NCBI GenBank assembly: GCA_964536835.1
Contig: CAZIAZ010000001.1
Coordinates: forward strand, 49,525 to 113,524
Source: an uncultured Planctomycetaceae bacterium
Lineage (GTDB): Bacteria > Planctomycetota > Phycisphaerae > SM23-33
DNA length: 64,000 nt
Direction of reading: 5' to 3'
The notes below the pieces were generated by a model. That model saw only the letters and a program-made list of their open reading frames with translations, searched no databases and was not told where the DNA came from. This document shows, piece after piece, positions 8,406 to 59,051 of the stretch; within the stretch, counting starts at the first letter, position 1; each line of letters begins with the position of its first letter. A program made the translations under genes and the position numbers.

Positions 8406-8744
8406 ATGGATTTGAACGTAGAAAAAAAGGACGGAGTGGCGATAGTGACTCTTTTGGGAAGTCATCTTGACGCCAGCAATCATGAATTGTTCATGCAGGA
8501 CATAACACCCGTCATCGAAGAAAATCCTAATCTGCTGCTCGATATCGGAGAATTACAGGCATTGGACAGTTCCGGCCTGGGGGCGTTTGCGTATTGTATG
8601 CGAACGGCGCGCGACGCCGGCGGCAGATTGACGATATGTCGTCCTTCGCCGCGGGTTCTGGTTACATTCGAACTGGTGCACATAGACAGAATCATCGGCG
8701 TATACGACACGCGGGATGCCGCCGTGGATTCATACAAAAAATAA
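8406..8744 (+). CDS. STAS-domain anti-sigma-factor antagonist (SpoIIAA-like)
   Basis: 112 aa. The LDxSxxxxIDSSGLG block carries the conserved phosphorylatable Ser context. Confidence 0.8.
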   Translation: MDLNVEKKDGVAIVTLLGSHLDASNHELFMQDITPVIEENPNLLLDIGELQALDSSGLGAFAYCMRTARDAGGRLTICRPSPRVLVTFELVHIDRIIGVYDTRDAAVDSYKK

Positions 8745-8775: not shown

Positions 8776-10635
8776 TTACATTTTTCTGCTTTTTTCCAAA
8801 ATATCTTTCAATTCGTCGCAGACTTTTTCGACCTGTCTGTCTTTAAGGTTGAGTATGTCTTTCAATGCCTGGCCGATGGCCGGGATGTATTTCTCTATGT
8901 AGCTGCGTTTTTTGAGTTCCTGCCTGATTCGGGACGTTTTACGAATATGCGCTCCCAGTTTTCTGCCGCATTCCTGGAGAGCGAGTCTTATTTCCTTCAA
9001 AATATCGGGATACGATGCGATAGCCTCTTTTGATTCGCTCGTAAAGGGGACCCACACGCTGCCCATATGTATGACTATGGTCAAATCGCCAGCCGGCAGG
9101 GCACCGCGGCTCTGTGAGAGGCCATACTTGCGCCAGCTCATCTGTGCCACGCTTTTGTAAATCGCGCATGCTCCCTGCTGATACTGCAGCGGCACACGAT
9201 TGGCGAGGCGGAGCACTCGCGCCAGAGAATCTCCGCCATTGTCGTCATCGGCCGACGTCGCGTCATCATTATCGTCGTCATTTTCGGTTTCATCAAGCAG
9301 GGTTTGCTGCTGTTGCGACTGGCAGGCTGGATTTTTGCCGTATGCGATAGCCGCTTCTATGACGAACGGATTGCCGCGATAGACCGCCGGCTTGCGCGAG
9401 ATGGCGGCGTAAAATTCCGCGTCGACCACCTGTTTTAATCCGGCAATCAACTGTTCGTGGCCGATGGGCACGATGCAGTCCGTATTCGGCGCGAGTATTT
9501 TGACGTCGTTTATTGCGACGTGGAGTGCTCTGGCCTTATCGCCGTCGACGCCCGCTGGCCGTGTTTTTGGAGTTAGACCCATGCCTGCTTTTTTGATTAT
9601 CTCGTCGGCGAGCTTGGGCGAGATGCGGGAAAATTCGCTCGTGAAAAACTGCTGCAGATTTTTAGCAGTCGTATCCTGGAGCATTTTTATGAAAACGCCC
9701 AGTTCCACTCCATGCGGATGGGGCTTGATTTCCTTGGGGATTGCGGGCAGTTCCATGACCGAGGCGGTGTAGGAAATATCGCGTCCGTCCGGCGTTTTAT
9801 ATTTGAATGTAACATGAGGATTTGCGACGGCCGTCTGCTGGAGATATTCATCTACGCTCTGGCGGCCTTTCTGATAGCGGGCTTCCAGCTCTATCTCCAC
9901 GCAAGTGCCGTGTTCCGGAGCCCAGTCGACGATTTCATCCGCGAGGATTTCCGGTTTGTTATTTCGCGTGTCGATTTTAAGCGTATATGAATGAGCCGGC
10001 GAGCGTTTGCCTGTGCGGCTGATGATTTTGACCGGCTTGCCCGTAGTCAAAAGGCCATACATGCCGGCTGCGGATATGCCGATACCCTGCTGGCCCCTGC
10101 TCATCCTCAGCCTGTGAAATTTACTCCCGTAAAGCAGTCTGCCGAAGATATTGGGTATCTGCTGCCTGACGATGCCAGGGCCGTTATCCTGTACCATGAC
10201 CCGAAAATGCGTCTCGGAAATCTGGTCAATGGCGACTTCTACCAGGGGCATTATGCCGGCTTCTTCGCAAGCATCCAGCGAGTTGTCAACCGCTTCTTTT
10301 ACCGTGGTCAGCAAAGCCTTTCTGGGATTGTCGAATCCCAGCAGATGGCGGTTCTTGGCGAAAAATTCGCTTACCGAAATACTCCGTTGAGCCTTGGCCA
10401 TGGATTCCGCCGTAGCATATTTCTGCTTCGCCGATTTTCTTTTCGTTACAGGCGAGTGTTCTTCCGTTTCTTCCGGAAGTTGAGGATTGGAGGGTGGTGT
10501 TTTTTTGCTTATCCGTTTGGCTTTAGCAGGTTTTTCCGCCACAGTTGACGATTCGGCGGTCACCTGGTTGTCGTCGAAAAGAAATCCTGTTGCGTCTTTT
10601 TTTGAGGTTTTTGTGTTGGGGGCTTTTTTGGCCAT
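8776..10635 (-). CDS. top6B: DNA topoisomerase VI subunit B (Top6B), with a basic H1-like N-terminal tail and an acidic insert
   Basis: GHKL Bergerat-fold motifs: EAVDNSLDA (N box), DNGPGI (G1), SRGQQGIGISAAGMY (G2). Also the Top6B-specific RLANRVPLQYQQGACAI, an H2TH region, and a transducer with conserved Lys. AAGGAG sits 7 bp upstream of the ATG. Confidence 0.85.
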   Translation of the reverse strand: MAKKAPNTKTSKKDATGFLFDDNQVTAESSTVAEKPAKAKRISKKTPPSNPQLPEETEEHSPVTKRKSAKQKYATAESMAKAQRSISVSEFFAKNRHLLGFDNPRKALLTTVKEAVDNSLDACEEAGIMPLVEVAIDQISETHFRVMVQDNGPGIVRQQIPNIFGRLLYGSKFHRLRMSRGQQGIGISAAGMYGLLTTGKPVKIISRTGKRSPAHSYTLKIDTRNNKPEILADEIVDWAPEHGTCVEIELEARYQKGRQSVDEYLQQTAVANPHVTFKYKTPDGRDISYTASVMELPAIPKEIKPHPHGVELGVFIKMLQDTTAKNLQQFFTSEFSRISPKLADEIIKKAGMGLTPKTRPAGVDGDKARALHVAINDVKILAPNTDCIVPIGHEQLIAGLKQVVDAEFYAAISRKPAVYRGNPFVIEAAIAYGKNPACQSQQQQTLLDETENDDDNDDATSADDDNGGDSLARVLRLANRVPLQYQQGACAIYKSVAQMSWRKYGLSQSRGALPAGDLTIVIHMGSVWVPFTSESKEAIASYPDILKEIRLALQECGRKLGAHIRKTSRIRQELKKRSYIEKYIPAIGQALKDILNLKDRQVEKVCDELKDILEKSRKM

Positions 10636-10684
10636 CCGTGGCTCCTTCGGTCCGTATATTCGTACAACGTATTTATAAGATTTT

Positions 10685-10886
10685 CATTTGTCCGTCTATC
10701 GGTGGACATTTTTATCTATGCTTTTTTAAAAAAACGGAAAATTACGACAGGCATATCAAAATTTTTTACGCGTTAAAACCGTTTAGAATCATATTTGTCA
10801 GGCTTTCGTTTATCTGCTTGTCGGGGGATATTTTTATCTATGTTTTTTAAAAAAACCGGAAAATTACGACCGTCATATTAAAAACT
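10685..10886. repeat. Two tandem copies of a ~85-bp hairpin-rich repeat unit (same family as 16750-16913 and 1783-1950)
   Basis: Copy 1 runs 10689-10762 and copy 2 runs 10798-10886. Both match caggctttcg…ggRgataYttTcatctaYgKttttaaaaaaCCGgaaaattacgaMNgNcatatYaaaa and align to 16815-16905. Confidence 0.7.
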
Positions 10887-11519
10887 GTTTTCGGCTTCAT
10901 CCGGATTTTCGATTTTTCTTACGGTTGAATCTTCATCGGTGATATGAGCCGTAATTGCCAGCTTCATGGCTGTCTCGACAGACATATCCAGCGGCGTCAA
11001 GTCGCACGGCCGTGCCAGTACCGTCGGCCCGCCTATCATGTATCCCATCGGGAGAAAGACGACTACGCGTTTTTCGCCGTTCACGCATACTTTGGGCTTT
11101 TCGTTCGTAACTATGCCGAGCATGGCGAAAGACGAGCCTTCCGGCTTGAACAGAACCGGCCGGCCACGTCTTTTTTCTGACGTCTGGCCGAAAAGTTTCA
11201 TCAGGTCTCGTACCGATTCGTATACCGTCTTTATGCCCGGCAGAGAGCTTAGCACCTGGTCTACCCAGTTGAAAAATCGGCTGAACATCCAGAAATCCGC
11301 CAGCACTCCAACCAGATAAATAAGCAGCAGCACAGCCAGTACGCCCAGGCCGCTGGCGACAGGTTCCCATTTGCTTTCGACCGACAGTTGGGTTATTCCG
11401 AAAACGCCTCGGCCCAGTCTGCCGACGAACTGGCCGACTATCACTATAATCCAGACGGTCGCACCAAGAGGGCCGACGATAAAAAGGCCAGTCATCATTT
11501 TCTTTACATGTTTACGCAT
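10878..11519 (-). CDS. DUF502 family membrane protein
   Basis: Two N-terminal TM helices, then SLPGIKTVYESVRDL…VFLPMGYMIGGPTVL…LDMSVETAMKLAITAHI blocks characteristic of DUF502/COG2928. Confidence 0.55.
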   Translation of the reverse strand: MRKHVKKMMTGLFIVGPLGATVWIIVIVGQFVGRLGRGVFGITQLSVESKWEPVASGLGVLAVLLLIYLVGVLADFWMFSRFFNWVDQVLSSLPGIKTVYESVRDLMKLFGQTSEKRRGRPVLFKPEGSSFAMLGIVTNEKPKVCVNGEKRVVVFLPMGYMIGGPTVLARPCDLTPLDMSVETAMKLAITAHITDEDSTVRKIENPDEAENSF

Positions 11520-11697
11520 TTTTCATTGCCTTTCGACTCGCGACATTTTGACAGAATTCCGGCGGAAATTCAACGGAATAATGGTTTTGTACGGCTGAGC
11601 TTACTATAATGGATAAAAATGATTTTGCGATATGAATATTGCGGTTGTGCGATGTAAGCCGAATCCGCCGTGGATATTATCTTATGTGGAGAACGAC

Positions 11698-12531
11698 ATG
11701 AAATTTACGCAAATCGGCCGAGCGGCAATTTTTGGATTAGTCGTAGCAGCGGTGGCAGTTTTTGCCGCTGGATGCAAAGAGAAGGTTCACCATCATCATG
11801 CAGAGCCTACGCCGCCGCCGAGGCCTTGCCCTGTCCCGCCGCAGCCGCAACCGAGTCCAATGCAGATGTGGACGGAAATATCGGGCAGAGTTTTCATAGA
11901 CGCCAAGCCGTGCAAAGACGCCACAATTACCGTATTCTGGGGCAAAGGCCGCTGTTACAAAAAATCCTGCCAGACGAACAAAAAAGGCGATTTCGTAATA
12001 TGTGAAATTCCGCCCAAACGGGAAATTGCGATTGAGTTCCGTGGCAGGCATCACGAGCGGGAATATTTTTCAGCCAGGTCGATGTGGACCGGCCGTGCCG
12101 GCGATATTATGGTACTGGGCAGAATAGACCTTTCCGAAGTTCGGCCACAGCCAAGGCCGCAACCTATGCCCGGCCCTGTACCAGGCCCCAAACCGGCTCC
12201 GCATCCCAAGCCCACGCCAGGCCCCATGCCGCATCCAGAACCAGTCAGCAGGTGTGACCTGAAAATAAGCGGTTGCGTCATGTTTGAAGGCCGTCCGGCT
12301 CAAAATGCCGCGGTACGAATAACGTCCGGCAGAATTTACGAACGCACCGTCAAAACCGACGACAGAGGCCGATTTCGCGTAGCAGATGTACCACGGCATG
12401 CAAGAATTGAGATATTCGCAGAGCAGAAAAAACATCATCTGGTACTGGTCGGGTCGGCTGTGATACAGACCGGCGACAACAATGTCGATATAGGGCCGTT
12501 GACGCTTTTTACAAAAAAGAAGAAAAAATAA
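11698..12531 (+). CDS. Lipoprotein with two CarboxypepD_reg-like beta-sandwich repeats and Pro-rich linkers
   Basis: Signal peptide ending in a lipobox (FAAGC), a His4 run, and PxPxP linkers. Internal duplication (ISGRVFIDAKPC… and ISGCVMFEGRPA…). The ORF listed from 11632 has no signal peptide, so the start was moved to 11698. Confidence 0.5.
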   Translation: MKFTQIGRAAIFGLVVAAVAVFAAGCKEKVHHHHAEPTPPPRPCPVPPQPQPSPMQMWTEISGRVFIDAKPCKDATITVFWGKGRCYKKSCQTNKKGDFVICEIPPKREIAIEFRGRHHEREYFSARSMWTGRAGDIMVLGRIDLSEVRPQPRPQPMPGPVPGPKPAPHPKPTPGPMPHPEPVSRCDLKISGCVMFEGRPAQNAAVRITSGRIYERTVKTDDRGRFRVADVPRHARIEIFAEQKKHHLVLVGSAVIQTGDNNVDIGPLTLFTKKKKK

Positions 12532-35596: not shown

Positions 35597-36973
35597 ATGT
35601 CGACGCCACATCTTAAAATTTTTTTAAAGCATCAGCCCGTTCGCGTGTGGCTATGGATTTTCGCGATATGGGCCGTGCTGGAAGCATTTTGCGTCTGGCT
35701 GCGCATCGGCCTTTCGATAGAAGATGTGCCGTTAAAATTTCCCATTTCAATATGCATCATTTCACCGCATCTGAAAAACTGGCCCATGCTGGCGGTTTTC
35801 TGCACAATAGCGTGGCTGGTCATGAAAAACATCCGTCAAATCAAAACGGCCGGATTGATACTATTCAGCCTGCTGCTGATATGCAGCGGCAACCTCATGC
35901 AGGGTTTTAATGGAGCGTTTCTGTATCCGCTCGGCGTAGAAACAGGAAATACCGACCAGTATTATGCGGAGGCCGCCGGCATAAAAATCTCCTCTGCCGA
36001 ATGGCTGGCTGATTTTAATGAAAATCAGCGTGATTTGATGACACATTCGCGTACGCATCCGCCATTTGCAGTGCTGCTGTTTCGCGAACTGGCGGGAGCG
36101 GCCACAAATGACGGCACATGTTCCAGATGGCCGGTACTCGCAGTATGGCTGATTTGCACAAGCCTCTGTGTGCCGATGCTTTTTGAAATATTCCACAAAA
36201 TCGGAATCGGTATAAACCATGCGAAATATCTGGCTATATTTCTGGCCGTCATGCCGGCATTCAACATATACAGCGTGCTGAGCCTGGACAGCATGATATT
36301 TTTCCTGTCGCTATTCTTCTTCCACGGCATAACGGACATAAATGCCCGCGGTGCAAACCTGGAAAATATCGTCGCAGTGACAATTTCGACGATTGCGATA
36401 AATCTTCTGACCTTCGGCGGGATTTTCTTTTTCGTCCTGTTGTTAACGCTGGCGATAATCCGGCTGATACGACATGAAAAAAAGGGATATGTGGCGGCAT
36501 TGTTAATCGCGGCAGTTGTTTTCGGAGCGATTATAATCTATCTGAATTTTTATTGCGGTTATGACCATTTGAGGGCGTTTTTAACGGCTTGCGGGCTGGA
36601 GTCGCACGGCAGAACAGCGGCACAGCGGGTATGGCTGTATATCGAATCGCGATTCGAAGACGTCTGCGAAATAGGCCTCTGCCTGGGGCTGGTGACACTG
36701 GCGACGATGCTGTCTGCGAAAAATCGCCGGCTTGACATTTTGGATTTTAGAGACCGTCGCAACGAGATTGCGGTTACAGCCATCGGCGTATTGTTTGCGA
36801 TATTTCTCGGCGGCGCTTACAAGACGGGCGAGACGGCTCGTACCTGCATGTTCATTTATCCATACATCTTTCTGCTGATGCGCGGCTTGAGCGTGCGGAC
36901 GTTGCGGGAGATTTTCGTCTGCTGTACAATTCAGACGGCAATGATGCAGTTCATGGGTTCATACGACTGGTAA
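35597..36973 (+). CDS. Polytopic integral membrane protein, possibly a GT-C-type glycosyltransferase or ligase
   Basis: At least 10 predicted TM helices and no recognisable catalytic motif. Adjacent to a GT9 heptosyltransferase. Confidence 0.35.
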   Translation: MSTPHLKIFLKHQPVRVWLWIFAIWAVLEAFCVWLRIGLSIEDVPLKFPISICIISPHLKNWPMLAVFCTIAWLVMKNIRQIKTAGLILFSLLLICSGNLMQGFNGAFLYPLGVETGNTDQYYAEAAGIKISSAEWLADFNENQRDLMTHSRTHPPFAVLLFRELAGAATNDGTCSRWPVLAVWLICTSLCVPMLFEIFHKIGIGINHAKYLAIFLAVMPAFNIYSVLSLDSMIFFLSLFFFHGITDINARGANLENIVAVTISTIAINLLTFGGIFFFVLLLTLAIIRLIRHEKKGYVAALLIAAVVFGAIIIYLNFYCGYDHLRAFLTACGLESHGRTAAQRVWLYIESRFEDVCEIGLCLGLVTLATMLSAKNRRLDILDFRDRRNEIAVTAIGVLFAIFLGGAYKTGETARTCMFIYPYIFLLMRGLSVRTLREIFVCCTIQTAMMQFMGSYDW

Positions 36974-39087: not shown

Positions 39088-39852
39088 ATGGACCGGCTGG
39101 ACAGGCAAAAGCTGGACTCTCTCTATCGCAGGTACAATAACCGCCGTTGGGCGGAATTAGACCCCATAAAATTCCTTTACTCATACGACTCGGCGGCTGA
39201 TATCGAAGTGGTCGGCCTGATTGCCGCGAGTTTCGCCTACGGCAGGGTCGAACAGATACTGAAATCCGTCGAACGGATTTTAACGCCGCTCGGCCGTCAG
39301 CCGGCGAAATTTCTTCTCTCTACGCCGCCGCAGGAAATTCGACGTCTGTATCCCGATTTCCGCCACCGTTTTCAGACATCAAGCGAATTGTCGGCGTTGC
39401 TTGTCGGCATACGGAAAACACTCGCATCGGACGGCTCACTTGAAAAAGCCTTCGCCGCCGCTTTTGCAAAAAAGCCAAATACGCCCGATGCATTGACCCT
39501 TTGGCGCGACGCGATATTTCTCGCCGGCGATTCAAAAGCCGGCCATCTTCTGCCCGACCCGCGACGCGGCAGCGCATGCAAAAGGATGTTCATGTACCTG
39601 CGATGGATGATACGAAAAGACGACGTCGATATGGGTGTCTGGAAGTGCATTACGCCGGCGGAGCTGATTTTCCCGCTTGACGTTCATATGCATCGGCAGG
39701 CGATGGCGCTTCACGCCACGTCCCGCAAAGCAGCCGACCTGAAAGCCGCCCTGGAAACTACCGAATCTTTCCGAAAAATTCAGCCGTCAGACCCCGTCAA
39801 ATACGATTTCGCCCTGGCGCATCAGGGTATGGATATTCACAGGAACGGCTGA
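39088..39852 (+). CDS. Conserved hypothetical protein, DUF2400/TIGR02757-like
   Basis: About 250 aa; general similarity recalled, not verified. Confidence 0.4.
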   Translation: MDRLDRQKLDSLYRRYNNRRWAELDPIKFLYSYDSAADIEVVGLIAASFAYGRVEQILKSVERILTPLGRQPAKFLLSTPPQEIRRLYPDFRHRFQTSSELSALLVGIRKTLASDGSLEKAFAAAFAKKPNTPDALTLWRDAIFLAGDSKAGHLLPDPRRGSACKRMFMYLRWMIRKDDVDMGVWKCITPAELIFPLDVHMHRQAMALHATSRKAADLKAALETTESFRKIQPSDPVKYDFALAHQGMDIHRNG

Positions 39853-41037: not shown

Positions 41038-43794
41038 TTGAGACGTCTTGATAACGAATGGAGTTCAAAAGTGGCCGACGACGATCAGGAACAATACGAA
41101 GAGAACATGGATGGACAAAACCTGCCCGAAGATGACGGCGGCGATGACGACGATTCGCCGATAGTCGCAGCGATGTTCCCCGGCGAGCGCATAGACGAGC
41201 TTCCCATCGAAGAGGAAATGCGCGAGAGCTACCTCACCTACGCCATGAGTACCATCATGGACCGGGCATTGCCCGACGTTCGCGACGGGCTCAAGCCTTC
41301 TCAACGTCGCGTACTGGTAGCCATGAACGACCTTAACCTCGGCCCCCGCAGCAAGCATCGTAAGTGCGCAAAAATAGCAGGCGACACTTCCGGTAACTAT
41401 CATCCGCATGGCGAAGCAATAGTTTACCCAACTCTGGTACGGCTGGGTCAGCCGTGGAACATGCGATATCCGCTTATCGACCCGCAGGGCAATTTCGGTT
41501 CTATCGACGGCGATCCGCCGGCTGCCATGCGTTATACCGAAGCACGCATGAAAGCCCCAGCCATGGAATTGCTGGCTGACCTGAATCTGCAAACCGTGGA
41601 TTTGCAGCCGAATTACGACGATACCCGTACCGAGCCTACAGTTCTGCCGTCCAAATTTCCTAATCTGCTGGTCAACGGCTCACAGGGCATAGCAGTCGGC
41701 ATGGCCACCAGCATCCCGCCGCACAACGTTACGGAAATATGCGACGCGCTGGTAAAAATGATTGACAACCCGGACATAACCATCGATGAGCTTATGGAGA
41801 TTGTCAAGGGGCCGGATTTCCCGACGGGCGGTCTGATATGTGGCCGTCGCGGCATAGTGGAAGGTTACCACACCGGCAGAGGCCGGCTGTGCGTCCGCGC
41901 TAAAATGCATACCGAACAGACGCGGGGCGGCAAGGAACAGATTGTCATTACGGAAATACCTTACCAGGTTCTCAAAAGCACGATTATCGAGCACATCGCC
42001 GAAACTGTAAAAGCCGGCAAAATCCCCGACATCGCCGACGTACAGGATCACTCCGACCGTACCGGCATGCGAATAGTCGTGGACTTGAAGAAAGGCGCCG
42101 AATCGTCGGTCGTAATCAACCAGCTTTACAAATTTACGCCGCTCCAGAGCACTTTTAGCATAATCAACATCGCCCTTGTCAATCGTGCGCCTCGCACGCT
42201 GAATCTTCGCGACATGCTCTATTATTTCCTAGAGCATCGTAAGGACGTTATACGCCGCAGAACCATATTTCTGTTGCGTCGCGCACGTCAACGGGCACAC
42301 ATATTGGAAGGCCTGATACTCGCAGTAGCCGATATCGACGCCATTATAGAACTTATCAAGAAATCGCCCGACGTGCCGACCGCCAAAGAGCGGCTGATGA
42401 AATACCAGCTCAGCCTTACGGAAGACGCAACGGTAAGAAAACTTCTGCCCGACTCGTTCCTCAACCGCACGGTCGGCAAGCCGCAGAATCTTACCGGCGT
42501 ACAGGCTGACGCAATCCTGGCCATGCAGTTGCAGCGGCTGACCGGCCTTGAGATAGAGAAGCTCGCCAACGATTACTCCAGATTAACCGAGGAAATCGAA
42601 GGCTACGAAGCCATCCTCACTCAGGAATCGCTCCTGCTGGACGTCATCCGCGAAGATATTTTTGAGATAAAGGACAAATACGGCGATGAACGTCGCACGC
42701 AGATTGTCCAGGACGCGAATGAAATCGACATAGAAGACCTCATCGCCGAAGAAGACGTGGTAGTTACGCTATCGCACGAGGGCTACATCAAGCGTATGCC
42801 GGTTTCCACCTATCGCCGTCAGGGCCGCGGCGGCCAGGGCATAATCGGCGGCGAAAGCAAAGAGGGCGATTTCATCGAGCAGCTCTTTATCGCCTCCACG
42901 CACGATTACCTGCTGGTATTCCTGAACACCGGCAAGATGCACTGGCTGAAGGTCTACGACATCCCGTCGATGACCCGCACGAGCAAAGGCCGCGCAATCG
43001 TAAATCTGCTCCAGATGGAACAGAACGAAAAAATCTGCGCCGTCGTAAACGTCCGCGAATTTTCCGACGACAAGTACCTGTTCATCGCCACAAAAAAAGG
43101 ACAGGTCAAAAAGACCGAACTGTCTGCGTATGAAAACGTCCGCAAGGGCGGCCTTATTGCGACGGGCCTCAATGAAGGCGACCAGGTCATCGGCGTGGCG
43201 ATAACCAACGGCAATGACGAGATAGTTCTCGGCACGCGGGACGGCCAGGCGATTCGCTTCAAGGAATCCGACGTCAGACCGATGGGCCGAACGGCAGCCG
43301 GCGTACGCGGCATAAACATACGCGATGAAGATGAAGTAGTCGACATGGTCGTAGTCAATACACACGAGACGCTTCTGACGGTCTGCGAGAACGGCTACGG
43401 CAAGCGGACGGATTTTGACGAATACCGCATACAGGGCCGTGGCGGCAGCGGCATTATCAACATCAAGGCATCCGACCGTAACGGGCCGGTGGTGGCTATC
43501 AAGTCCATCCACGACGCCGACGAACTCATGATGATAACGCAGAACGGCAAAGTCGTACGAATAGCTGTCCGGGAGCTTCGCACCATAGGCCGCGCAACGC
43601 AGGGCGTCCGTGTCATATCGCTCAAACCAGGCGATAAACTCATGGCTGTCGCAAAAGTCGTTCCGGATGACGACGAAAACGCCAATCAGCATGAACTGCC
43701 TCTGACGCCTGCCGACCCGCAGCAGAAACTCATCCCCGATTCGTCTGAGCCGGAAGAAAACGGCTCTCCCGATACCGTGAATGACGAAGAATGA
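41038..43794 (+). CDS. gyrA: DNA gyrase subunit A with acidic N- and C-terminal extensions
   Basis: GyrA N-terminal blocks ([26 protein letters not shown], active-site Tyr region), GyrA-box beta-pinwheel repeats, and an acidic tail. The listed start is TTG at 41038; the first ATG is at 41092. Confidence 0.9.
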
Positions 43795-49639: not shown

Positions 49640-52600
49640 CTATATGGTTTTACGTCGCAGAGTCGATGATATGGCACGGGCGGCTTTGCGGCCTGAGTCG
49701 ATAGCCGTTGCAACATAGGCCGAGCCGGTCGCCAAATCACCTGCTATGAACACTCGCGAATTGGTGGTCGTATATTTGCCAGGAATAATCACACTGCCGC
49801 GGTTGTCCGTCTGTATTTTCAAATCTTTCGCAAGATTTGACGGAATCTGCGGCAGAAAACCTGCTGCGATTATGACGATATCGGCGGCGATTGAAAACTC
49901 ACTGCCGTCGACTTTCTCCATAACCGGGCCTTTCGCCGTCGGCCTATATTCCACCCGCAGAGCCTTAACGCCCGTAACACTGCCGCTTTGCGACGTAAAT
50001 TCAGTCGCCCTGACCTGCCACATGCGTTTGACGGCTGGATTTTCATCCAGCACCGCCGTCATGTCCTGCGGCAGAATTTCAAGCTGATAAACTTCCTTCG
50101 CGCCCTGCCGCATCGCCGTTTCCACGCAATCTTCGCCGGTAAGGCCGCCGCCTATGACAACCACCGTCTTGCCTGAGGCGGAAATAGACGGCTGTGATTT
50201 TTCGACATCCGCGCGATTCTGGCTGCCGAGATAGTCCAGCGCGAAATGAATATTCGCCGCCGCTCTGCCGGGCAGATCAAGTTCGCGCGGCACTATAGCA
50301 CCGCAGGCCAGACAGACAACATCGAAATCATGCAACAGCGATTCGCCTGAAACATCCCTGCCGACTTCCACGCCGTACATGAATTGCACGCCTTCCTGGC
50401 GGAGTTGTTCGATGCGTCGATCTATAAGCTGCTTGGCCAATCTTGCAGCCGGCACGCCGACCCGCAACATGCCGCCTGCCGCATCGTTCTTTTCAAACAC
50501 AGTCACTGTATGGCCTGTGCGGCAGAGCTGCTGCGCAGCAGCCAGGCCGGCCGGCCCGCTACCTATCACCGCAATATTTTTGCCCGTCGCTCCACGCGGT
50601 TTGAACGGCTGGACCCAGCCCTGTTCGAAGGCGCGGTCGATTATCTCCCGCTCCATTTCCCGAACCTGCACGGAATATCCGCCGATACCCTGATGGCAGT
50701 TCTGCTCGCAGAACGCAGGACAGATGCCTGCGGTAAATTCCGGAAAATTGTTCTTTTCCGCAAGTTTAGCGTAGGCGACTTTCCATTTGCCTTCGCGAGC
50801 CAGGCTAATCCATTTCGGCACATCGTTGCCGAGCGGACAGCCCTGCTGGGAACACGATGGCATATAGCAATTCTGGCACAAAGGCCCGGAAAGCAGACGC
50901 ACCTGACGACGATATTCTTCGGCATCGCCGAATGCGAATCGACTGGTCAGATTGATGTATTCTTCTCGGAAGCCGTATTCTTGCGGCATGAAAAATCTTG
51001 TAACGGAACGAATGAACCGCATCCGTCGCAAGATTTTCAGCTGCCAATCATATACGCTGAAACGAATCTGTTTTTCCCATGAGCCGATTTTTATATGACG
51101 CTTCCAGAGATGACGGTAAATAATTCTGTCGCCGTTAGCCGGATTGACGTTGTATTTTTCGGCATCGCGACGATATTTTTCATGGCTGGTGGAAAGTTCG
51201 GCTTTGAATACGGCATCCTTTATGAGCATCGCCTGCGCCAGATTTTTCACTACAGCGCCGGATGCGGCATAACCGTATTCCGGCCGGTCTTTTTCGCAAA
51301 TGTTCCGAACGAGATTTACGTACTGTCTACAATAATCCACGCCGCCCCACCGGACGCAATCATAAGCGCGAATTACGATATCCCGCAAAATGGTTTGGTT
51401 GAATTCGCGAAGTTTTTCCAGCAACGAAACCAGCATGTCGCGAAACTCGGCAACCGCCTGAGCGTTTTTGCCGAATCGACGCTGAAGTTCGCGGGCTTTA
51501 TCGTCCAACGTCTCACGCCATGTCGTGCGTTTGTGCGGGCCCTGGAACAGGTCCGGACTGTCAACGAGTTTTCGGCCCATATTGAATGCGTAAAGATTCT
51601 TTTTGAAATCGACGCGTATCGTATCCTTTATTGCCCAGGCCATCGAATGCATGGAAACCGGAATCAGTCCCTGCTGGAAAGCGTAACCGAGCATCATCAC
51701 GTTGGCATACAGCCTGCTTCCTAGATATTTTTCGCAGATTCGTGAAATATTGCGAGCGAGAAATTCATCGCCGCGCGTATTAGCCTGTATCAGCCGCACG
51801 AGTTCATCCGTGTCGAAATCCTCGCGTCCCATAATGCCGGCGATGGTTTGCACTTTGTCCATATTGATGACAGCCGCCGTTTTATCTTTGCTTATTACAC
51901 GGACGCGGTTTTTCGGGTCGAGGATTCTGGCGGCTTCAAGGACGTCCACGCCGATGAGCAGGTCGGCTTTGCCGTGCGGTATTACAGCGGTGACCGGCTG
52001 TTGCGTGAGGTTGAACGTCACCTGAGAAAACACTCCGCCGTTGCGGATAGCCATGCCCTTGCGATCCATGAATATGACGCGATAGCCTTCATTATGGCCG
52101 GCTCGCACAAGTATGCTGGTCGCCAGGCCTATGCCCATGCCGCCCACACCCGTCAGGCAGCATCGCCAGACATCTTCCGTCGGACGCTTGCGAGGTTCGG
52201 GAATATTGTCCAGGTCGAGTTCGGGCACTCTGCTTCTGGGCTGAGCCTTGCGCTTGACTACAACTCGCTCGAACGCATCGCACTCGCCGATACGTTCACA
52301 TGCGCCGTCGGCGACGCAGTTGCTCAGGTCGGTGTCCATCTTTACGCCATAATCCGTCTGTACGTGTTTCAGACCCGGACAGCCGGTAAGCTTCGTACAA
52401 GCCAGACAGAAACGACAGATTTCCTGGTTGATGTTCATATGCTCCCTGGCCGGCAGGAAGCCTTTGCTCTTTATGACATCGCGCTCGAAACGGCGTAACC
52501 GGCGGGTTCTGGTTATGCCGCACTCCTTGTCCGCGATAATTATCTTGACGCCCGGCATAAGAAACGTACGTTCTAGAAGTTCGCGATATTCACCCCGTCT

Positions 52601-54361
52601 GGCCGGGTTCATACGAATGACCGGTATCTCCAGCGACCCGACGAGGCCGCGCACGACATTCTCGATATCCTGAGCCGGCGTACGATTGCCCAGCACATCG
52701 TAATCGACGCCTGGAGTCGGCTGATGGCCGGTCATGGCGGTCGTAGAATTATCCAGTATTATGTAGGTTATGTTCTGATTGAACTTGATAGCCTGGCTGA
52801 TGGACGTCATGCCGATATGGAAAAACGTGCTGTCGCCCATAAAAGTGACTTTGTTGTTCGTGGTAAACGGGTCAATGCCGCTGCCCGTTCCACCGCCAAG
52901 TCCCATGCCCGACAAATCATGCATAAGTTCGTTATTCGGCGGAAACATGAGCATGGTATAGCAGCCGATATCGCCGTGAAAAATCAGATCCACCGGCTCA
53001 CGGTGATGCTTCTGTCGCATATAATCCGGGTCGGCAAAACAGCGCTTGATATCCGTGCAGAGATTGGCTGAATCGCGGTGCGGACAACCAGGGCAGAACG
53101 TCGGCAGACGAGCCGGCAGTTTTGTCGTGACCTTGACGCTTTCAGTCTGTTCGATTGTGCGGATTTCTGTCTGAATAGTGCTCGCTGCCATGCTGTCCGC
53201 CGTCGTACAATAACGACAGACTAGCGGGCCGAGCGTCTGGATGATTATCGACGGGTCTAGGCCGCGTATTTCCGGCAAGCCTTTGAGGCCGTCGGGAAAT
53301 TTTTTGCCGAATATCATCACGTCGTCAAACGCGGCGTCTTTCTGACGCAACGCCGTCATGATTTCAGCAATCTGCTCTTCCATGAAGCCGCGCCGTTCCT
53401 CAACAACAATTATCCGCTCCACCTGCCGCGCCAGGTCTTCTATCATTTCCGGGTCGACCGGATACGACAGGCCGAGTTTGAGTATAGGCGCCTGGCCGAG
53501 CTGGCCCATTTCGTACAGCGCCTGGGTAAGATAATCATGTCCCAAGCCGGCACAGACGAAGCCCAGCGGCTTGCGGACGGAAGTTTCATTACGATATTCA
53601 AAGCGGTTCAGCCCCAATTCACGGGCGGCTTTCATCGCGCGGCTGAATCGGCCGGTCAGCGACGCCTCCTGCCACCACGTCCGCGGCGGCAGAAGTACGC
53701 GTTTGTCAAAATCTATGTCTTTCGTAACCATCTCGATACGGTCATACATGTTGACCGACGGGAAATGGTTGGGCCGACACTCCACAGTGCCGCCGCCGTC
53801 GGCAAGATTCGTGGTGATGATGTAACCCACTACCAGTTCACTGATAGCCGACAGTTTGAACGAAAGATTTACAAAATCCTTGATTTCCTGCGGATTGGAA
53901 GGCTCGATGGTGGGAATGAACAGGTGCTTGGAGATATAGCGGCTGTCGCTGGCGACCTGGGTGGAATCGCTCCACGGGTCGTCGCCGTAAATAACGATAG
54001 CTCCGCCTTCCGGATTAGCCCCAGCCAGGTTGGCAAGGGCAAGGGCATCGGCGGCTACGTGCACGCCGACGCTTTTCATCGCTATCATGGAACGCAACGG
54101 CAGCGATTGTGTGCCGTTGAGCATGGCTGCCGCCAGCGCTTCGTTGTTATTGATTACGGCACGTATGCCCTTTTCACGCAAAACATCCTTCAACGCAGTC
54201 AGCGAGTCGAAATAGCCTGCTATCGGCGAACCTGGATAACCGCCGAGCAGATGTACGCCGCCTTCCGTCTCAAGGGCGCCTTTCACGAGCAATTCACTGC
54301 CAGTGAACACTTCCGTGCCCTCGCACTTCATGAATCTTCCTTCTGTCTTCATAGTCGTCAT
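49640..54361 (-). CDS. Fusion protein: indolepyruvate/2-oxoacid:ferredoxin oxidoreductase (IorA+IorB modules) joined to a GltD-like NAD(P)H-binding flavoprotein domain
   Basis: IorA blocks: YPGSPIAG, CPGCPH, GDIGCY, GDSTFFH, and two ferredoxin-like Cys clusters. IorB/gamma block: GVGGMGIG. C-terminal ~450 aa are GltD-like: Cys-rich N-region, FAD site AVIGSGPAGLAAA…VTVFEK, NAD(P) site VVVIGGGLTGEDC. One continuous 1573-codon frame. Confidence 0.8.
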   Translation of the reverse strand: MTTMKTEGRFMKCEGTEVFTGSELLVKGALETEGGVHLLGGYPGSPIAGYFDSLTALKDVLREKGIRAVINNNEALAAAMLNGTQSLPLRSMIAMKSVGVHVAADALALANLAGANPEGGAIVIYGDDPWSDSTQVASDSRYISKHLFIPTIEPSNPQEIKDFVNLSFKLSAISELVVGYIITTNLADGGGTVECRPNHFPSVNMYDRIEMVTKDIDFDKRVLLPPRTWWQEASLTGRFSRAMKAARELGLNRFEYRNETSVRKPLGFVCAGLGHDYLTQALYEMGQLGQAPILKLGLSYPVDPEMIEDLARQVERIIVVEERRGFMEEQIAEIMTALRQKDAAFDDVMIFGKKFPDGLKGLPEIRGLDPSIIIQTLGPLVCRYCTTADSMAASTIQTEIRTIEQTESVKVTTKLPARLPTFCPGCPHRDSANLCTDIKRCFADPDYMRQKHHREPVDLIFHGDIGCYTMLMFPPNNELMHDLSGMGLGGGTGSGIDPFTTNNKVTFMGDSTFFHIGMTSISQAIKFNQNITYIILDNSTTAMTGHQPTPGVDYDVLGNRTPAQDIENVVRGLVGSLEIPVIRMNPARRGEYRELLERTFLMPGVKIIIADKECGITRTRRLRRFERDVIKSKGFLPAREHMNINQEICRFCLACTKLTGCPGLKHVQTDYGVKMDTDLSNCVADGACERIGECDAFERVVVKRKAQPRSRVPELDLDNIPEPRKRPTEDVWRCCLTGVGGMGIGLATSILVRAGHNEGYRVIFMDRKGMAIRNGGVFSQVTFNLTQQPVTAVIPHGKADLLIGVDVLEAARILDPKNRVRVISKDKTAAVINMDKVQTIAGIMGREDFDTDELVRLIQANTRGDEFLARNISRICEKYLGSRLYANVMMLGYAFQQGLIPVSMHSMAWAIKDTIRVDFKKNLYAFNMGRKLVDSPDLFQGPHKRTTWRETLDDKARELQRRFGKNAQAVAEFRDMLVSLLEKLREFNQTILRDIVIRAYDCVRWGGVDYCRQYVNLVRNICEKDRPEYGYAASGAVVKNLAQAMLIKDAVFKAELSTSHEKYRRDAEKYNVNPANGDRIIYRHLWKRHIKIGSWEKQIRFSVYDWQLKILRRMRFIRSVTRFFMPQEYGFREEYINLTSRFAFGDAEEYRRQVRLLSGPLCQNCYMPSCSQQGCPLGNDVPKWISLAREGKWKVAYAKLAEKNNFPEFTAGICPAFCEQNCHQGIGGYSVQVREMEREIIDRAFEQGWVQPFKPRGATGKNIAVIGSGPAGLAAAQQLCRTGHTVTVFEKNDAAGGMLRVGVPAARLAKQLIDRRIEQLRQEGVQFMYGVEVGRDVSGESLLHDFDVVCLACGAIVPRELDLPGRAAANIHFALDYLGSQNRADVEKSQPSISASGKTVVVIGGGLTGEDCVETAMRQGAKEVYQLEILPQDMTAVLDENPAVKRMWQVRATEFTSQSGSVTGVKALRVEYRPTAKGPVMEKVDGSEFSIAADIVIIAAGFLPQIPSNLAKDLKIQTDNRGSVIIPGKYTTTNSRVFIAGDLATGSAYVATAIDSGRKAARAISSTLRRKTI

Positions 54362-57995: not shown

Positions 57996-59051
57996 ATGAA
58001 ATATAAGCCCGACTGGGCAGAAGCCCGTGAACGGTTAACCGCCCTTTGGAATCACGAAACGCTTGACCGACCCTGCATTGCAGTAATAGCCCCAAACGGT
58101 AAAAAAACGCCGGCACCTGAATTACCAGCAAATCTGGAAGACATATGGCTAAACATTGAATGGGTAAAAAAGGCTTATTTGGCAAAGCTCGAAAACACAT
58201 GGTGGGGCGGCGAGGCTATTCCGTCATACCTGACAATGGGCGGATGGGTACTCTGTCTGGGCGGCACGCCAAAATTTGCACAAGACACAATATGGTTTGA
58301 GCACGTTAATATTGATTTTAATGGCCCTTCTCCATTTTATTACAAAGATGGCGACCCGTGGGTTGAAAAATACATGGCCTTATATAACGTCATTGTCGAA
58401 ATGGCCGGCAAAGATGATTTTCTGGTAGGGAAACCCTCTAATCTTCCTGCCAATGACCTTTTCTCGATGTTTATGGGAACAGAAGAATTTTTGTTCAGCC
58501 TCATTGACCATCCGGAATGGATGCGTAATGCAATCATCAAGGGCGCTCAGGAACAATTGAAATTATGTCGCAAAATTGAAAAAAACATTTGCGAAAAACA
58601 TGACTTCTGGTACGGCCACGGCGGATGGATGTGCTTTTGGGCTCCTCAGCCGTTCACATCCACGCAATCAGACGTGTCGTGCATGCTCTCGCCGGAAATG
58701 TTTGAAGAATTCATTATGCCGGAAATGGATATACTTGGGCAGGCCTACGGTGCGTTGTGGTATCATCTGGACGGCGGTAATGCCCGCCAGCATTTGCCGC
58801 GATTGTTGTCGCTGCCTTATTTGAAAGTTCTTCAATACGTGCCGGCACCATGCGAACCGGCTAACGGCCCTGAACATCTTGATTTTTACCGTACTATACA
58901 GGCAGCCGGCAAAATAGTTCATATCGGAGTGCCAAAAGAAAATGTCCTCCCATTGGTAAAATCACTGGATACATCTTTGTTAATGCTGGATGTGACGTGC
59001 AACAGTGTGGAAGAAGGACAGGCATTGCTGAAGGCAACCAAAAAAGCCTGA
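57996..59051 (+). CDS. Uroporphyrinogen decarboxylase (URO-D)-like family protein, function unknown
   Basis: Blocks DHPEWMRNAI, SPEMFEEFIMPEMDIL and HLDGGNARQHL resemble the URO-D / MtaA methyltransferase fold. Lies in an AT-rich island. Confidence 0.45.
   Translation: MKYKPDWAEARERLTALWNHETLDRPCIAVIAPNGKKTPAPELPANLEDIWLNIEWVKKAYLAKLENTWWGGEAIPSYLTMGGWVLCLGGTPKFAQDTIWFEHVNIDFNGPSPFYYKDGDPWVEKYMALYNVIVEMAGKDDFLVGKPSNLPANDLFSMFMGTEEFLFSLIDHPEWMRNAIIKGAQEQLKLCRKIEKNICEKHDFWYGHGGWMCFWAPQPFTSTQSDVSCMLSPEMFEEFIMPEMDILGQAYGALWYHLDGGNARQHLPRLLSLPYLKVLQYVPAPCEPANGPEHLDFYRTIQAAGKIVHIGVPKENVLPLVKSLDTSLLMLDVTCNSVEEGQALLKATKKA

What the first reader, a model, noticed from the sequence alone, without database searches (positions are those of the whole stretch)
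8776..10635. Solitary topoisomerase VI B subunit with a histone-H1-like basic tail and an acidic insertion, and no Top6A nearby
The ORF carries every Top6B signature: the GHKL N, G1 and G2 boxes, RLANRVPLQYQQGACAI, and the transducer. It is flanked by a STAS antagonist gene on the left, convergent at 8406-8744, and a DUF502 gene on the right at 10878-11519. No Spo11/Top6A-like ORF exists on either strand for about 10 kb around it. From established knowledge, topo VI is an A2B2 enzyme and bacterial examples normally encode A and B adjacently. Two features are unusual. The first ~95 residues (nt ~10350-10635) are Lys/Ala/Pro-rich (AKKAP, KPAKAKR, KRKSAKQK), resembling eukaryotic H1/HU-like DNA-binding tails. 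A DETENDDDNDDATSADDDNGGD acidic loop is inserted at nt ~9250-9315. The window also encodes gyrA and topA, so gyrase is present. Inference: either a distant unlinked Top6A completes the enzyme, or this B subunit has an A-independent role.
Basis: partly seen in the sequence, partly recalled or inferred. Interest (0 to 1): 0.65.

Follow-up and report, generated by a model that had tools for sequence, protein, structure and literature searches.

The report
Unlinked topoisomerase VI B subunit gene
This is an intact gene for the ATPase half of DNA topoisomerase VI in a planctomycete bacterium; in its whole lineage it lies apart from the gene for the DNA-cutting half, which most likely sits elsewhere in the genome, so it is an ordinary enzyme with unusual gene order and two lineage-specific floppy appendages.

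Summary
The ORF at 8776-10635 (-) is a full-length, intact topoisomerase VI B subunit. It passes both NCBIfam equivalog cut-offs, matches M. mazei Top6B at E=3.7e-142, and keeps every ATPase motif. No Top6A is encoded anywhere in the 64-kb window.

The gene belongs to a large Planctomycetota clade (Phycisphaerae- and Planctomycetia-labelled MAGs, 61-74% identical). In this clade top6B never has top6A beside it. All members carry a disordered basic N-terminal tail and a roughly 30-residue acidic expansion of one transducer loop.

Basic tails are common in other bacterial Top6B and Top6A proteins. The acidic insert is specific to this clade.

Other bacteria show every stage of separation:
- B and A adjacent, which is the majority.
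- One to five genes inserted between them.
- Fully unlinked top6A, seen in Brocadiia-type planctomycetes.

The clade evolves at a normal rate and conserves the C-terminal stalk.

Most likely this is the B subunit of a normal A2B2 topo VI whose top6A is unlinked.

About a third of the tails, including this one in degenerate form, hold a QxxLF-type motif. It resembles the bacterial sliding-clamp binding motif. This is untested.

The parts
8776..10635 (-). top6B coding sequence (619 aa plus stop)
   Evidence: The predicted fold best matches M. mazei Top6B chains 9o0g_B and 2q2e_B.
10414..10635 (-). N-terminal extension, aa 1-74: Lys/Ala/Pro/Thr-rich and predicted disordered
   Evidence: The alignment to 2q2e_B starts at aa 75. 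pLDDT is below 50 over aa 1-80. Tails are present throughout the clade: median 86 aa, with 25 K+R against 4.5 D+E.
10570..10590 (-). Short linear motif T-G-F-L-F-D-D (aa 16-22) inside the tail; a degenerate copy of the QxxLF / QLSLLD motif seen in relatives
   Evidence: L[FL][DASG] occurs in 31 of 100 tails against 1.7 expected from shuffles. Q..L[FL] occurs in 12 of 100 against 0.15. The published clamp-binding consensus is QLxLF (PMC4549789).
9736..10413 (-). N-terminal strap plus GHKL/Bergerat ATPase domain (aa 75-300), with N, G1 and G2 boxes and a KGRQ loop
   Evidence: The strap is 93.5% identical and the GHKL domain 72.5% identical within the clade.
9490..9735 (-). H2TH domain (aa 301-382)
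   Evidence: Aligned to M. mazei residues 235-311. The DNA contacts K268 and K308 correspond to R337 and K379 (PMC13040014).
8956..9489 (-). Transducer domain (aa 383-560), including WRKY (501-504) and the switch lysine K536
   Evidence: PF09239 E=8.9e-51. Motif positions. DNA-contact mapping.
9220..9330 (-). Clade-specific acidic insertion (aa 436-472); the acidic run DETENDDDNDDATSADDDNGGD is aa 448-469
   Evidence: This is the gap in the alignment to 2q2e_B between chain residues 364 and 372. The loop is 12 aa in all other lineages and 31-46 aa in this clade. The clade median is 35 aa with 9 D+E. pLDDT is below 50 at aa 450-467.
8779..8955 (-). C-terminal stalk helices (aa 561-619), the region that holds Top6A in solved holoenzymes
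   Evidence: 71% identity within the clade and 47.5% to lineages with adjacent Top6A. The shared motif is KKRSYIEKYIP.IG.AL..IL...LE[RK]SRK. Predicted helices H543-595 and H599-616. The role in binding Top6A is from my own knowledge of 2Q2E and 2ZBK.
10878..11519 (-). DUF502 gene, upstream and co-directional; the only partly conserved neighbour
   Evidence: PF04367. The same position is occupied in L004 and L006, and it lies 5 kb away in L009.
8406..8744 (+). STAS-domain gene, convergent, ending 31 nt from the top6B stop
   Evidence: PF01740 and PF13466. It is not conserved next to top6B in relatives.
10670..10883 (.). Two copies of a 92-nt direct repeat (10670-10761 and 10792-10883, 80% identical) in the DUF502-top6B intergenic region
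   Evidence: Function unknown; possibly a duplicated promoter region.

Best explanation
The gene encodes the ATP-binding B subunit of a canonical A2B2 type IIB topoisomerase (topo VI).

Shown:
- The protein is intact and carries all ATPase and transducer signatures.
- It keeps most of the basic residues that contact DNA in the M. mazei enzyme.
- Its C-terminal stalk is conserved.
- In its whole planctomycete clade the gene stands alone.

Inferred:
- The partner top6A is encoded elsewhere on the chromosome. The ancestral B-A operon was broken up, as all the intermediate stages seen in other bacteria suggest.
- The enzyme works alongside gyrase, probably as a decatenase and relaxase.
- The disordered basic N-terminal tail adds non-specific DNA affinity, as lysine repeats do for actinobacterial TopA.
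- The tail may also carry a QxxLF-type docking motif for the beta sliding clamp.
- The acidic loop sits about 30 residues before the DNA-binding WKxY stalk motif. It may modulate DNA binding.
For: Family membership.
- Equivalog HMMs are above their cut-offs.
- E=3.7e-142 to 2q2e_B, with only two extra segments.
- Motifs are intact.
- The AlphaFold core is confident and best matches M. mazei Top6B.

DNA contacts. 7 of 12 basic residues that contact DNA in M. mazei Top6B are kept as K or R, and W and Y of WKxY are kept.

Clade-wide solitary arrangement.
- The window, three other assemblies of the same organism, L004, L005/L007, L006, L010 and L034 have full 10-kb flanks and no Top6A.
- L008, L009 and L011 have shorter flanks and also show none.

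Normal evolutionary rate. The clade is 56% identical to other type-1 Top6B, against 58% among the others, and 68% within the clade.

Stalk conservation. 71% within the clade, with a motif shared with linked lineages.

Break-up series in other bacteria.
- 54 of 80 top6A loci have top6B adjacent.
- 1-5 genes are inserted in L040, L079, L086, L109, L118 and L125-L128.
- top6A has no top6B within up to +-10 kb in L045, L106, L113, L130-132 and L134. All of these are Planctomycetota-labelled or related to such proteins.

Precedent for tails. They occur on both subunits elsewhere. Lysine repeats raise TopA processivity (PMC5714199).
Against: - No Top6A of this organism or of any member of this clade was found.
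- Two Top6A profile searches listed no protein named Phycisphaerae. Those lists saturate at about 70% identity, so this is weak evidence.
- No contig carrying both genes of a clade member was identified.
- The decatenase role, the tail's DNA binding, clamp docking and the function of the acidic loop are all inferred, not tested.
- The window's own motif (TGFLF) lacks the consensus glutamine.
Confidence: 0.8

Rival explanations
1. Orphan Top6B. The clade has lost Top6A. The B subunit then acts alone as a DNA-binding GHKL ATPase or clamp, or works with an unrelated nuclease partner.
For: No Top6A lies within the window or near the gene in 8 relatives. No Phycisphaerae-named Top6A appears in the top lists. 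The clade has its own insertion and tail.
Against: The evolutionary rate is normal, and the transducer, switch lysine and C-terminal stalk are strongly conserved. These features only make sense for signalling to an A subunit. No conserved alternative neighbour exists apart from DUF502 in 3-4 loci. Unlinked top6A is demonstrably common in the phylum.
Confidence: 0.07
2. Spare paralogue. The genome has a complete second topo VI operon, for example the divergent Phycisphaerales type. This lone B is an extra copy that shares or competes for that A subunit.
For: Two distinct topo VI types exist in Planctomycetota. The second (L022, L024-L033, L040) is 44-49% identical and has A adjacent or, in L040, about 5 kb away.
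Against: The second type was seen only in other lineages (Phycisphaerales, Tepidisphaeraceae). No locus or contig showed both types. The lone B is as conserved as the single-copy B subunits of other phyla.
Confidence: 0.06
3. Partner is a divergent A-like protein (Mini-A or Topo VIII-like) rather than canonical Top6A.
For: Stand-alone A-like proteins with no B partner are known (PMC7671362).
Against: [quoted passage not shown] The window is ordinary chromosome, with carAB, pyrG, proS, secA, gyrA and topA.
Confidence: 0.03
4. Assembly or binning artefact, or a decaying gene.
For: The source is a metagenome-assembled genome. One NCBI MAG of it is highly fragmented, with contigs of 4.7 and 8.6 kb.
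Against: The identical gene and neighbourhood occur in three independent assemblies from JGI, ENA and NCBI. The same solitary arrangement appears on contigs of 71 kb to 916 kb in relatives. The ORF is intact.
Confidence: 0.01

Closest known systems
Methanosarcina mazei topoisomerase VI B subunit (PDB 2Q2E chain B; cryo-EM 9O0G, 9O8P)
   Same: Shares the GHKL, H2TH and transducer architecture. Alignment covers aa 75-435 and 473-596 at E=3.7e-142. It is the best fold match. The WKxY motif, the switch lysine and most stalk DNA contacts are conserved.
   Different: The window protein adds a 74-aa N-terminal tail and a roughly 30-aa acidic loop expansion. It lacks the Ig-like C-terminal domain of the M. 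mazei protein, because the alignment ends near chain residue 495 of 621. Its gene is not next to top6A.
Bacterial type-1 topo VI operons (Eisenbacteria, Latescibacteria, Krumholzibacteria, Myxococcota, some Planctomycetota)
   Same: The Top6B core is 53-58% identical, with the same C-terminal ...LE[RK]SRK end. Many also have basic N-terminal tails.
   Different: In those operons top6A overlaps or directly follows top6B, and the transducer loop is 12 aa.
Brocadiia/Brocadiales-type planctomycete topo VI
   Same: top6A and top6B are unlinked (L019, L045, L106, L113, L130, L134).
   Different: This is a different Top6B clade (L019/L020, 54% identical), with a short tail of 23 aa and the 12-aa loop.
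Actinobacterial TopA C-terminal lysine repeats
   Same: A disordered Lys-rich appendage on a topoisomerase. It stabilises the enzyme-DNA complex and raises processivity (PMC5714199).
   Different: That enzyme is type IA and its tail is C-terminal. The analogy is functional only and was not tested here.
Topo VIII and Mini-A (type IIB relatives on mobile elements)
   Same: They belong to the same type IIB superfamily, and Mini-A shows that A-like and B-like parts can occur apart (PMC7671362).
   Different: Topo VIII is a B-A fusion and Mini-A is an A-like protein. The window protein is a canonical stand-alone Top6B in a housekeeping chromosomal context.

Membership tests
Topoisomerase VI subunit B (Top6B) | GHKL/Bergerat ATPase fold with N box (catalytic Glu, Mg-binding Asn) and G1 and G2 boxes | tested here: met
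   HATPase_c hits. EAVDNSLDA at 114-122, DNGPGI at 150-155 and GQQGIGISAAG at 181-191 are invariant across 50 clade members.
Topoisomerase VI subunit B (Top6B) | Transducer domain with the switch lysine | tested here: met
   PF09239 E=8.9e-51 over profile positions 1-158 of 159. K536 in SESKEA aligns to the M. mazei and S. shibatae switch lysine.
Topoisomerase VI subunit B (Top6B) | [quoted passage not shown] | tested here: met
   Continuous alignment to 2q2e_B through chain residues 235-311. Helices are predicted at 310-378. The fold matches Top6B chains only at E<1e-30.
Topoisomerase VI subunit B (Top6B) | Full-length score above the curated equivalog cut-off | tested here: met
   NF003218 scores 650.6 bits (cut-off 274). 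TIGR01052 scores 510.5 bits (cut-off 380.7).
Topoisomerase VI subunit B (Top6B) | A Top6A/Spo11-type partner encoded in the same genome (A2B2 holoenzyme) | not testable with these tools
   It is absent from the 64-kb window. The rest of the genome could not be searched. Caps on the genome and metagenome scans and the protein searches were reached.
Topoisomerase VI subunit B (Top6B) | top6B-top6A adjacency (typical, not defining) | tested here: not met
   No Top6A lies within 10 kb downstream or 53 kb upstream of the gene. The same holds in the clade relatives.
Topoisomerase VI subunit B (Top6B) | ATP-dependent strand passage with Top6A | not testable with these tools
   This needs biochemistry.
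Beta sliding-clamp binding proteins (QLxLF motif) | A QLxLF-like pentapeptide in a disordered segment | tested here: inconclusive
   The window has TGFLF (aa 16-20), which lacks Q, in a region with pLDDT below 50. Eleven relatives have Q[LAPG][STDE]L[FL] against 0.02 expected from shuffles, and 31 of 100 have L[FL][DASG] against 1.7. The consensus is from PMC4549789. Binding was not tested.
Histone H1 / Hc1-like basic DNA-binding tails | Long Lys/Ala/Pro-rich low-complexity segment with high net positive charge | tested here: inconclusive
   The window tail has 18 K+R against 10 D+E in 84 aa, a modest net charge. The clade median is 25 K+R against 4.5 D+E. The resemblance is compositional only, with no homology.
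Topo VIII (fused B-A type IIB topoisomerase of mobile elements) | A single polypeptide with the B-like half fused to a 5Y-CAP plus Toprim half | tested here: not met
   The protein ends after the transducer stalk, has no Toprim or TP6A_N hit, and sits in a housekeeping context.

The most novel reading that the evidence does not exclude
A large planctomycete clade has dispensed with Top6A. Its tailed, acid-looped Top6B would work either as a stand-alone DNA-binding GHKL ATPase or with a non-Spo11 partner. Docking on the replisome through a QxxLF sliding-clamp motif in the tail would be possible in this reading.
Probability: 0.07. Interest if true: 0.8.

Novelty: new variant of a known kind. Interest (0 to 1): 0.35.

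Why it matters
Bacterial topo VI is almost unstudied. The reviews held here say only that it occurs in 'some bacteria'.

This locus shows three things about a widespread, abundant planctomycete lineage that also has gyrase:
- It keeps a well-conserved topo VI B subunit.
- The two subunit genes have drifted apart in this lineage.
- Disordered basic tails on the subunits are a recurrent bacterial addition.

The QxxLF motif in many tails gives a cheap, testable idea. A type IIB topoisomerase may be tethered to the sliding clamp for decatenation behind the fork. If the partner A subunit truly were missing, it would be the first A-independent Top6B, but that is unlikely.

Tried and rejected
1. Finding this organism's Top6A.
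- Two profile searches of the 5.8-billion-protein set returned only saturated top-120 lists. The first list was Eisenbacteria and other FCB-group proteins. The second was Brocadiia-type planctomycetes.
- Type-1 Top6A is about 70% identical across phyla, so the target cannot rise to the top without a close query.
- The search against 50%-identity representatives collapsed all type-1 Top6A into one full-length cluster, P0361. It was useless for this purpose.

I compared the Top6B and Top6A hit tables for matching contig lengths. The only coincidence was a 5,683-bp value shared by a Logan-only Top6B (P0013) and a Krumholzibacteria-named Top6A (P0343), which I took as chance.

3. Pairing by NCBI accession proximity. 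The proteins came from the same submission batches but lay 57,000-81,000 accessions apart, so they are not from the same MAGs.

4. P0312 as this organism's Top6A. It is an unlinked top6A in a TPA MAG from the same digester series. I rejected it because its GC is 59% against 52% and its DUF2400 is only 44% identical.

5. Extending the window leftwards with the last contig look-up returned only short contigs.

6. Looking for a conserved alternative partner next to top6B found only DUF502, and that only in some relatives.

7. The two family-less window ORFs (57996-59051 and 35597-36973) as cryptic Top6A. Rejected by the HMM and by hhalign.

8. The idea that the clade is fast-evolving or degenerate. 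Rejected.

9. The promoter and terminator scan around the gene gave no more matches than shuffled sequence.
Full report
**What is there**

The minus-strand ORF at 8776-10635 is real and starts with ATG. A GGAG sits 8 nt upstream of the start. It encodes 619 aa.

Family evidence is strong:
- Pfam finds the topo VI B transducer (E=8.9e-51) and the GHKL ATPase.
- Both NCBIfam Top6B equivalog models score far above their cut-offs: 650.6 against 274, and 510.5 against 380.7.
- The closest solved protein is M. mazei Top6B (2q2e_B, E=3.7e-142). It aligns in two blocks, aa 75-435 and aa 473-596.

The alignment therefore leaves exactly two extra pieces. One is a 74-aa N-terminal extension. The other is an insertion at aa 436-472.

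All functional signatures are present:
- the N, G1 and G2 boxes
- a KGRQ version of the KGRR loop
- WRKY at 501-504, the WKxY stalk motif
- the switch lysine K536

An AlphaFold model built from 50 clade members is confident in the core. Its pLDDT is below 50 for aa 1-80 and aa 450-467. Its best structural matches are the M. mazei Top6B chains.

I mapped the DNA-contact residues reported for the M. mazei holoenzyme on minicircle DNA (PMC13040014) onto the window protein. Seven of the 12 basic contact residues are kept as Lys or Arg, and W and Y of WKxY are kept too.

**No Top6A in the window**

- I built a Top6A HMM from four Pfam-verified Top6A ORFs. It found nothing at E<10 among all six-frame ORFs of at least 60 aa across the 64 kb. 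The same HMM scored even the divergent planctomycete Top6A type at 207-230 bits.
- Every long ORF was also scanned with Pfam or NCBIfam.
- The two ORFs with no family hit are not Top6A-like by profile comparison.
- The stated neighbours (STAS, DUF502) and the presence of gyrA and topA are confirmed.

**Who it belongs to**

The identical protein occurs in JGI, ENA and NCBI assemblies. NCBI names it as topoisomerase VI subunit B of a Phycisphaerae bacterium.

The 120 best database relatives are 62-74% identical. Every one that carries a name comes from Planctomycetota MAGs.

A scan of one genome per species returned 38 Top6B loci. In a neighbour-joining tree the window groups with L004, L006-L011 and L034. 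I call this group the solitary clade.

None of its members has Top6A in the available flanks. Flanks are a full 10 kb on both sides in L004, L005/L007, L006, L010 and L034. The only partly conserved neighbour is DUF502 directly upstream.

**Is the clade degenerate? No**

- Its Top6B is 56% identical to other type-1 Top6B. The others are 58% identical among themselves. Identity within the clade is 68%.
- The N-terminal strap, GHKL domain and transducer are 72-94% identical within the clade.
- The C-terminal stalk (aa 561-619) is 71% identical within the clade. It shares the motif KKRSYIEKYIP.IG.AL..IL...LE[RK]SRK with lineages whose top6A is adjacent.
- From my own knowledge of 2Q2E and 2ZBK, this stalk is the part that holds Top6A in the solved holoenzymes. 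This pattern is what one expects if a Top6A partner still exists.

**Gene order elsewhere**

In the genome scan, top6A directly follows top6B in Eisenbacteria, Myxococcota, Woesearchaeota, Methanosarcinales and several Planctomycetota.

A metagenome scan with a Top6A profile gave 80 loci:

| Arrangement | Loci |
|---|---|
| top6B directly upstream | 54 |
| top6B 0.8-2.6 kb upstream | 8 |
| No top6B in the available upstream sequence | 10 (5 of them with at least 2 kb upstream) |
| Uninformative | 8 |

Look-ups added more intermediate cases, with one to five genes between B and A in L125-L128. L040 has A about 5 kb away on the other strand.

Fully unlinked top6A genes form their own clade: L082, L092, L106 and L113. 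Their database relatives are named Planctomycetes SM23_32, Brocadiaceae, Brocadiia or Planctomycetota. L045 and L049 are 87-89% identical to a Brocadiales protein.

P0312 and P0253 were confirmed as unlinked. P0312 comes from a TPA MAG of the same anaerobic-digester series as the window organism. It is a different organism, because its GC is 59% against 52% and its DUF2400 is only 44% identical.

So separation of the two genes is a recurrent, graded process in bacteria, and especially in Planctomycetota.

**What I could not do**

I did not find the Top6A of this organism or of any solitary-clade member.
- Type-1 Top6A is about 70% identical across phyla and exists in thousands of clusters. The top-120 lists therefore saturate, at bit scores of 722-742 and 671-797. 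Absence from them carries no weight.
- The 50%-identity representative search collapsed the family into a single cluster.

**The two 'unusual' features**

Tail. In the 88 of the 120 closest relatives where both flanking motifs could be located, the tail is a median 86 aa long before the SISVSEFF motif, with a median of 25 K+R against 4.5 D+E. The window's own tail is less basic, with 18 K+R against 10 D+E.

Basic tails are not specific to this clade.
- They occur on Top6B of lineages with adjacent top6A: L012, L018, L023 and L118.
- They occur on Top6B of loosely linked lineages: L125 and L126.
- They also occur on Top6A: P0344, P0346, P0350, P0360 and P0368.
- In this window, gyrA has acidic tails and topA has none.
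- A functional analogue is the lysine-repeat tail of actinobacterial TopA, which raises processivity (PMC5714199).

Acidic insertion. It is specific to this clade. The loop is 12 aa in every other lineage examined (consensus G-D-L-P-x-D-E-x-x-x-L-x) and 31-46 aa here. It lies about 30 residues before the DNA-binding WKxY motif. Its function is unknown, and a role in tuning DNA binding is only a guess.

**A motif in the tail**

The tails do not align with one another, yet they share a short motif:
- QPSLFD, QASLFD, QATLFS, QGELFA and QLSLLD in relatives
- TGFLFDD in the window (aa 16-22)

| Pattern | Observed in 100 tails | Expected from shuffles |
|---|---|---|
| L[FL][DASG] | 31 | 1.7 (maximum 8 in 300 shuffles) |
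| Q..L[FL] | 12 | 0.15 |

The motif matches the published beta-clamp binding consensus QLxLF (PMC4549789) and lies in a predicted disordered region. The shuffles ignore relatedness. However, the surrounding tail sequence is only about 21% conserved within the clade, so retention of the motif suggests selection.

The idea is that topo VI is tethered to the sliding clamp. It is a hypothesis only. The window's copy lacks the glutamine.

**Verdict**

The most likely explanation (about 0.8) is an ordinary topo VI B subunit whose partner gene is unlinked. It belongs to a planctomycete lineage with a clade-specific acidic loop and a commonly seen basic tail.

An A-independent role is not excluded but is unlikely (about 0.07). 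The papers I searched and read do not describe this clade, its gene separation or the tail motif. The distance from known biology is nonetheless small.

Noticed in passing
window 10670-10761 and 10792-10883: Two copies of a 92-nt direct repeat, 80% identical, fill the DUF502-top6B intergenic region. The core GTCGTAATTTTCCG.TTTTTTTAAAAAA occurs nowhere else in the window. It may be a duplicated promoter or regulatory region.
   Followed up: partly
window 10570-10590 (aa 16-22 of Top6B), and the tails of P0002, P0021, P0025, P0027, P0044, P0063, P0068, P0080, P0092, P0094 and P0111: A QxxLF / QLSLLD-type short linear motif recurs inside otherwise unalignable basic tails. It is found in 31 of 100 tails against 1.7 expected from shuffles. 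It resembles the beta sliding-clamp binding consensus QLxLF.
   Followed up: partly
L015 10001-11806 and L016 2016-3797 (Planctomycetia Top6B): An 85-aa insertion sits at the same transducer loop as the window's acidic insert. It reads like a second H2TH-like segment (FLTASFDGVGTDGADKIIKTA...). This loop appears to be a hotspot for lineage-specific insertions.
   Followed up: no
P0344, P0346, P0350, P0360, P0368; L125 2221-3957 and 10001-11194; L126 3758-5551 and 7620-8852: In another bacterial topo VI lineage both subunits carry long Lys/Ala/Pro-rich N-terminal tails, and the two genes are separated by 2-6 kb of unrelated genes. The Top6A tail of P0368 contains QGELGF, which is similar to the QGELFA in the Top6B tails of P0063 and P0080.
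   Followed up: partly
L022, L024-L033, L040: Planctomycetota hold a second, divergent topo VI type. Its Top6B is 44-49% identical to the window's, and its Top6A scores only 207-230 bits with the type-1 HMM. It has adjacent genes and occurs in Phycisphaerales and Tepidisphaeraceae.
   Followed up: partly
L025 (CAYMSD010000082.1): A contig titled 'uncultured Klebsiella sp.' carries a Phycisphaerales-type topo VI operon nearly identical to L033. It is probably a mis-binned or mislabelled MAG.
   Followed up: no
window 41038-43794 (+): gyrA has strongly acidic N-terminal ([26 protein letters not shown]) and C-terminal tails. The annotated TTG start may lie too far upstream.
   Followed up: no
window 49640-54361 (-): A 1573-aa ORF fuses indolepyruvate:ferredoxin oxidoreductase alpha- and beta-like parts with a GltD-like NAD(P)H flavoprotein module.
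   Followed up: no
window 57996-59051 (+) and 35597-36973 (+): Two long ORFs (351 aa, just downstream of topA, and 458 aa) have no Pfam or NCBIfam match. They are not Top6A-like.
   Followed up: partly
L004 2064-4889 versus 10001-11860; window 41038-43794 versus 8776-10635: gyrA lies 5 kb from top6B in the closest long-contig relative and 30 kb away in the window. Gyrase and topo VI genes are adjacent in haloarchaea and Methanosarcina (PMC2647321). This may be coincidence.
   Followed up: no
L130 7696-9824 and 11716-12534; window 8406-8744 and 39088-39852: An unlinked top6A in another digester planctomycete sits beside a STAS-SpoIIE-STAS partner-switching cluster and a DUF2400 gene. The window's top6B sits beside a STAS gene, with a DUF2400 gene 30 kb away. 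This is probably coincidence, because STAS genes are abundant in the phylum.
   Followed up: no
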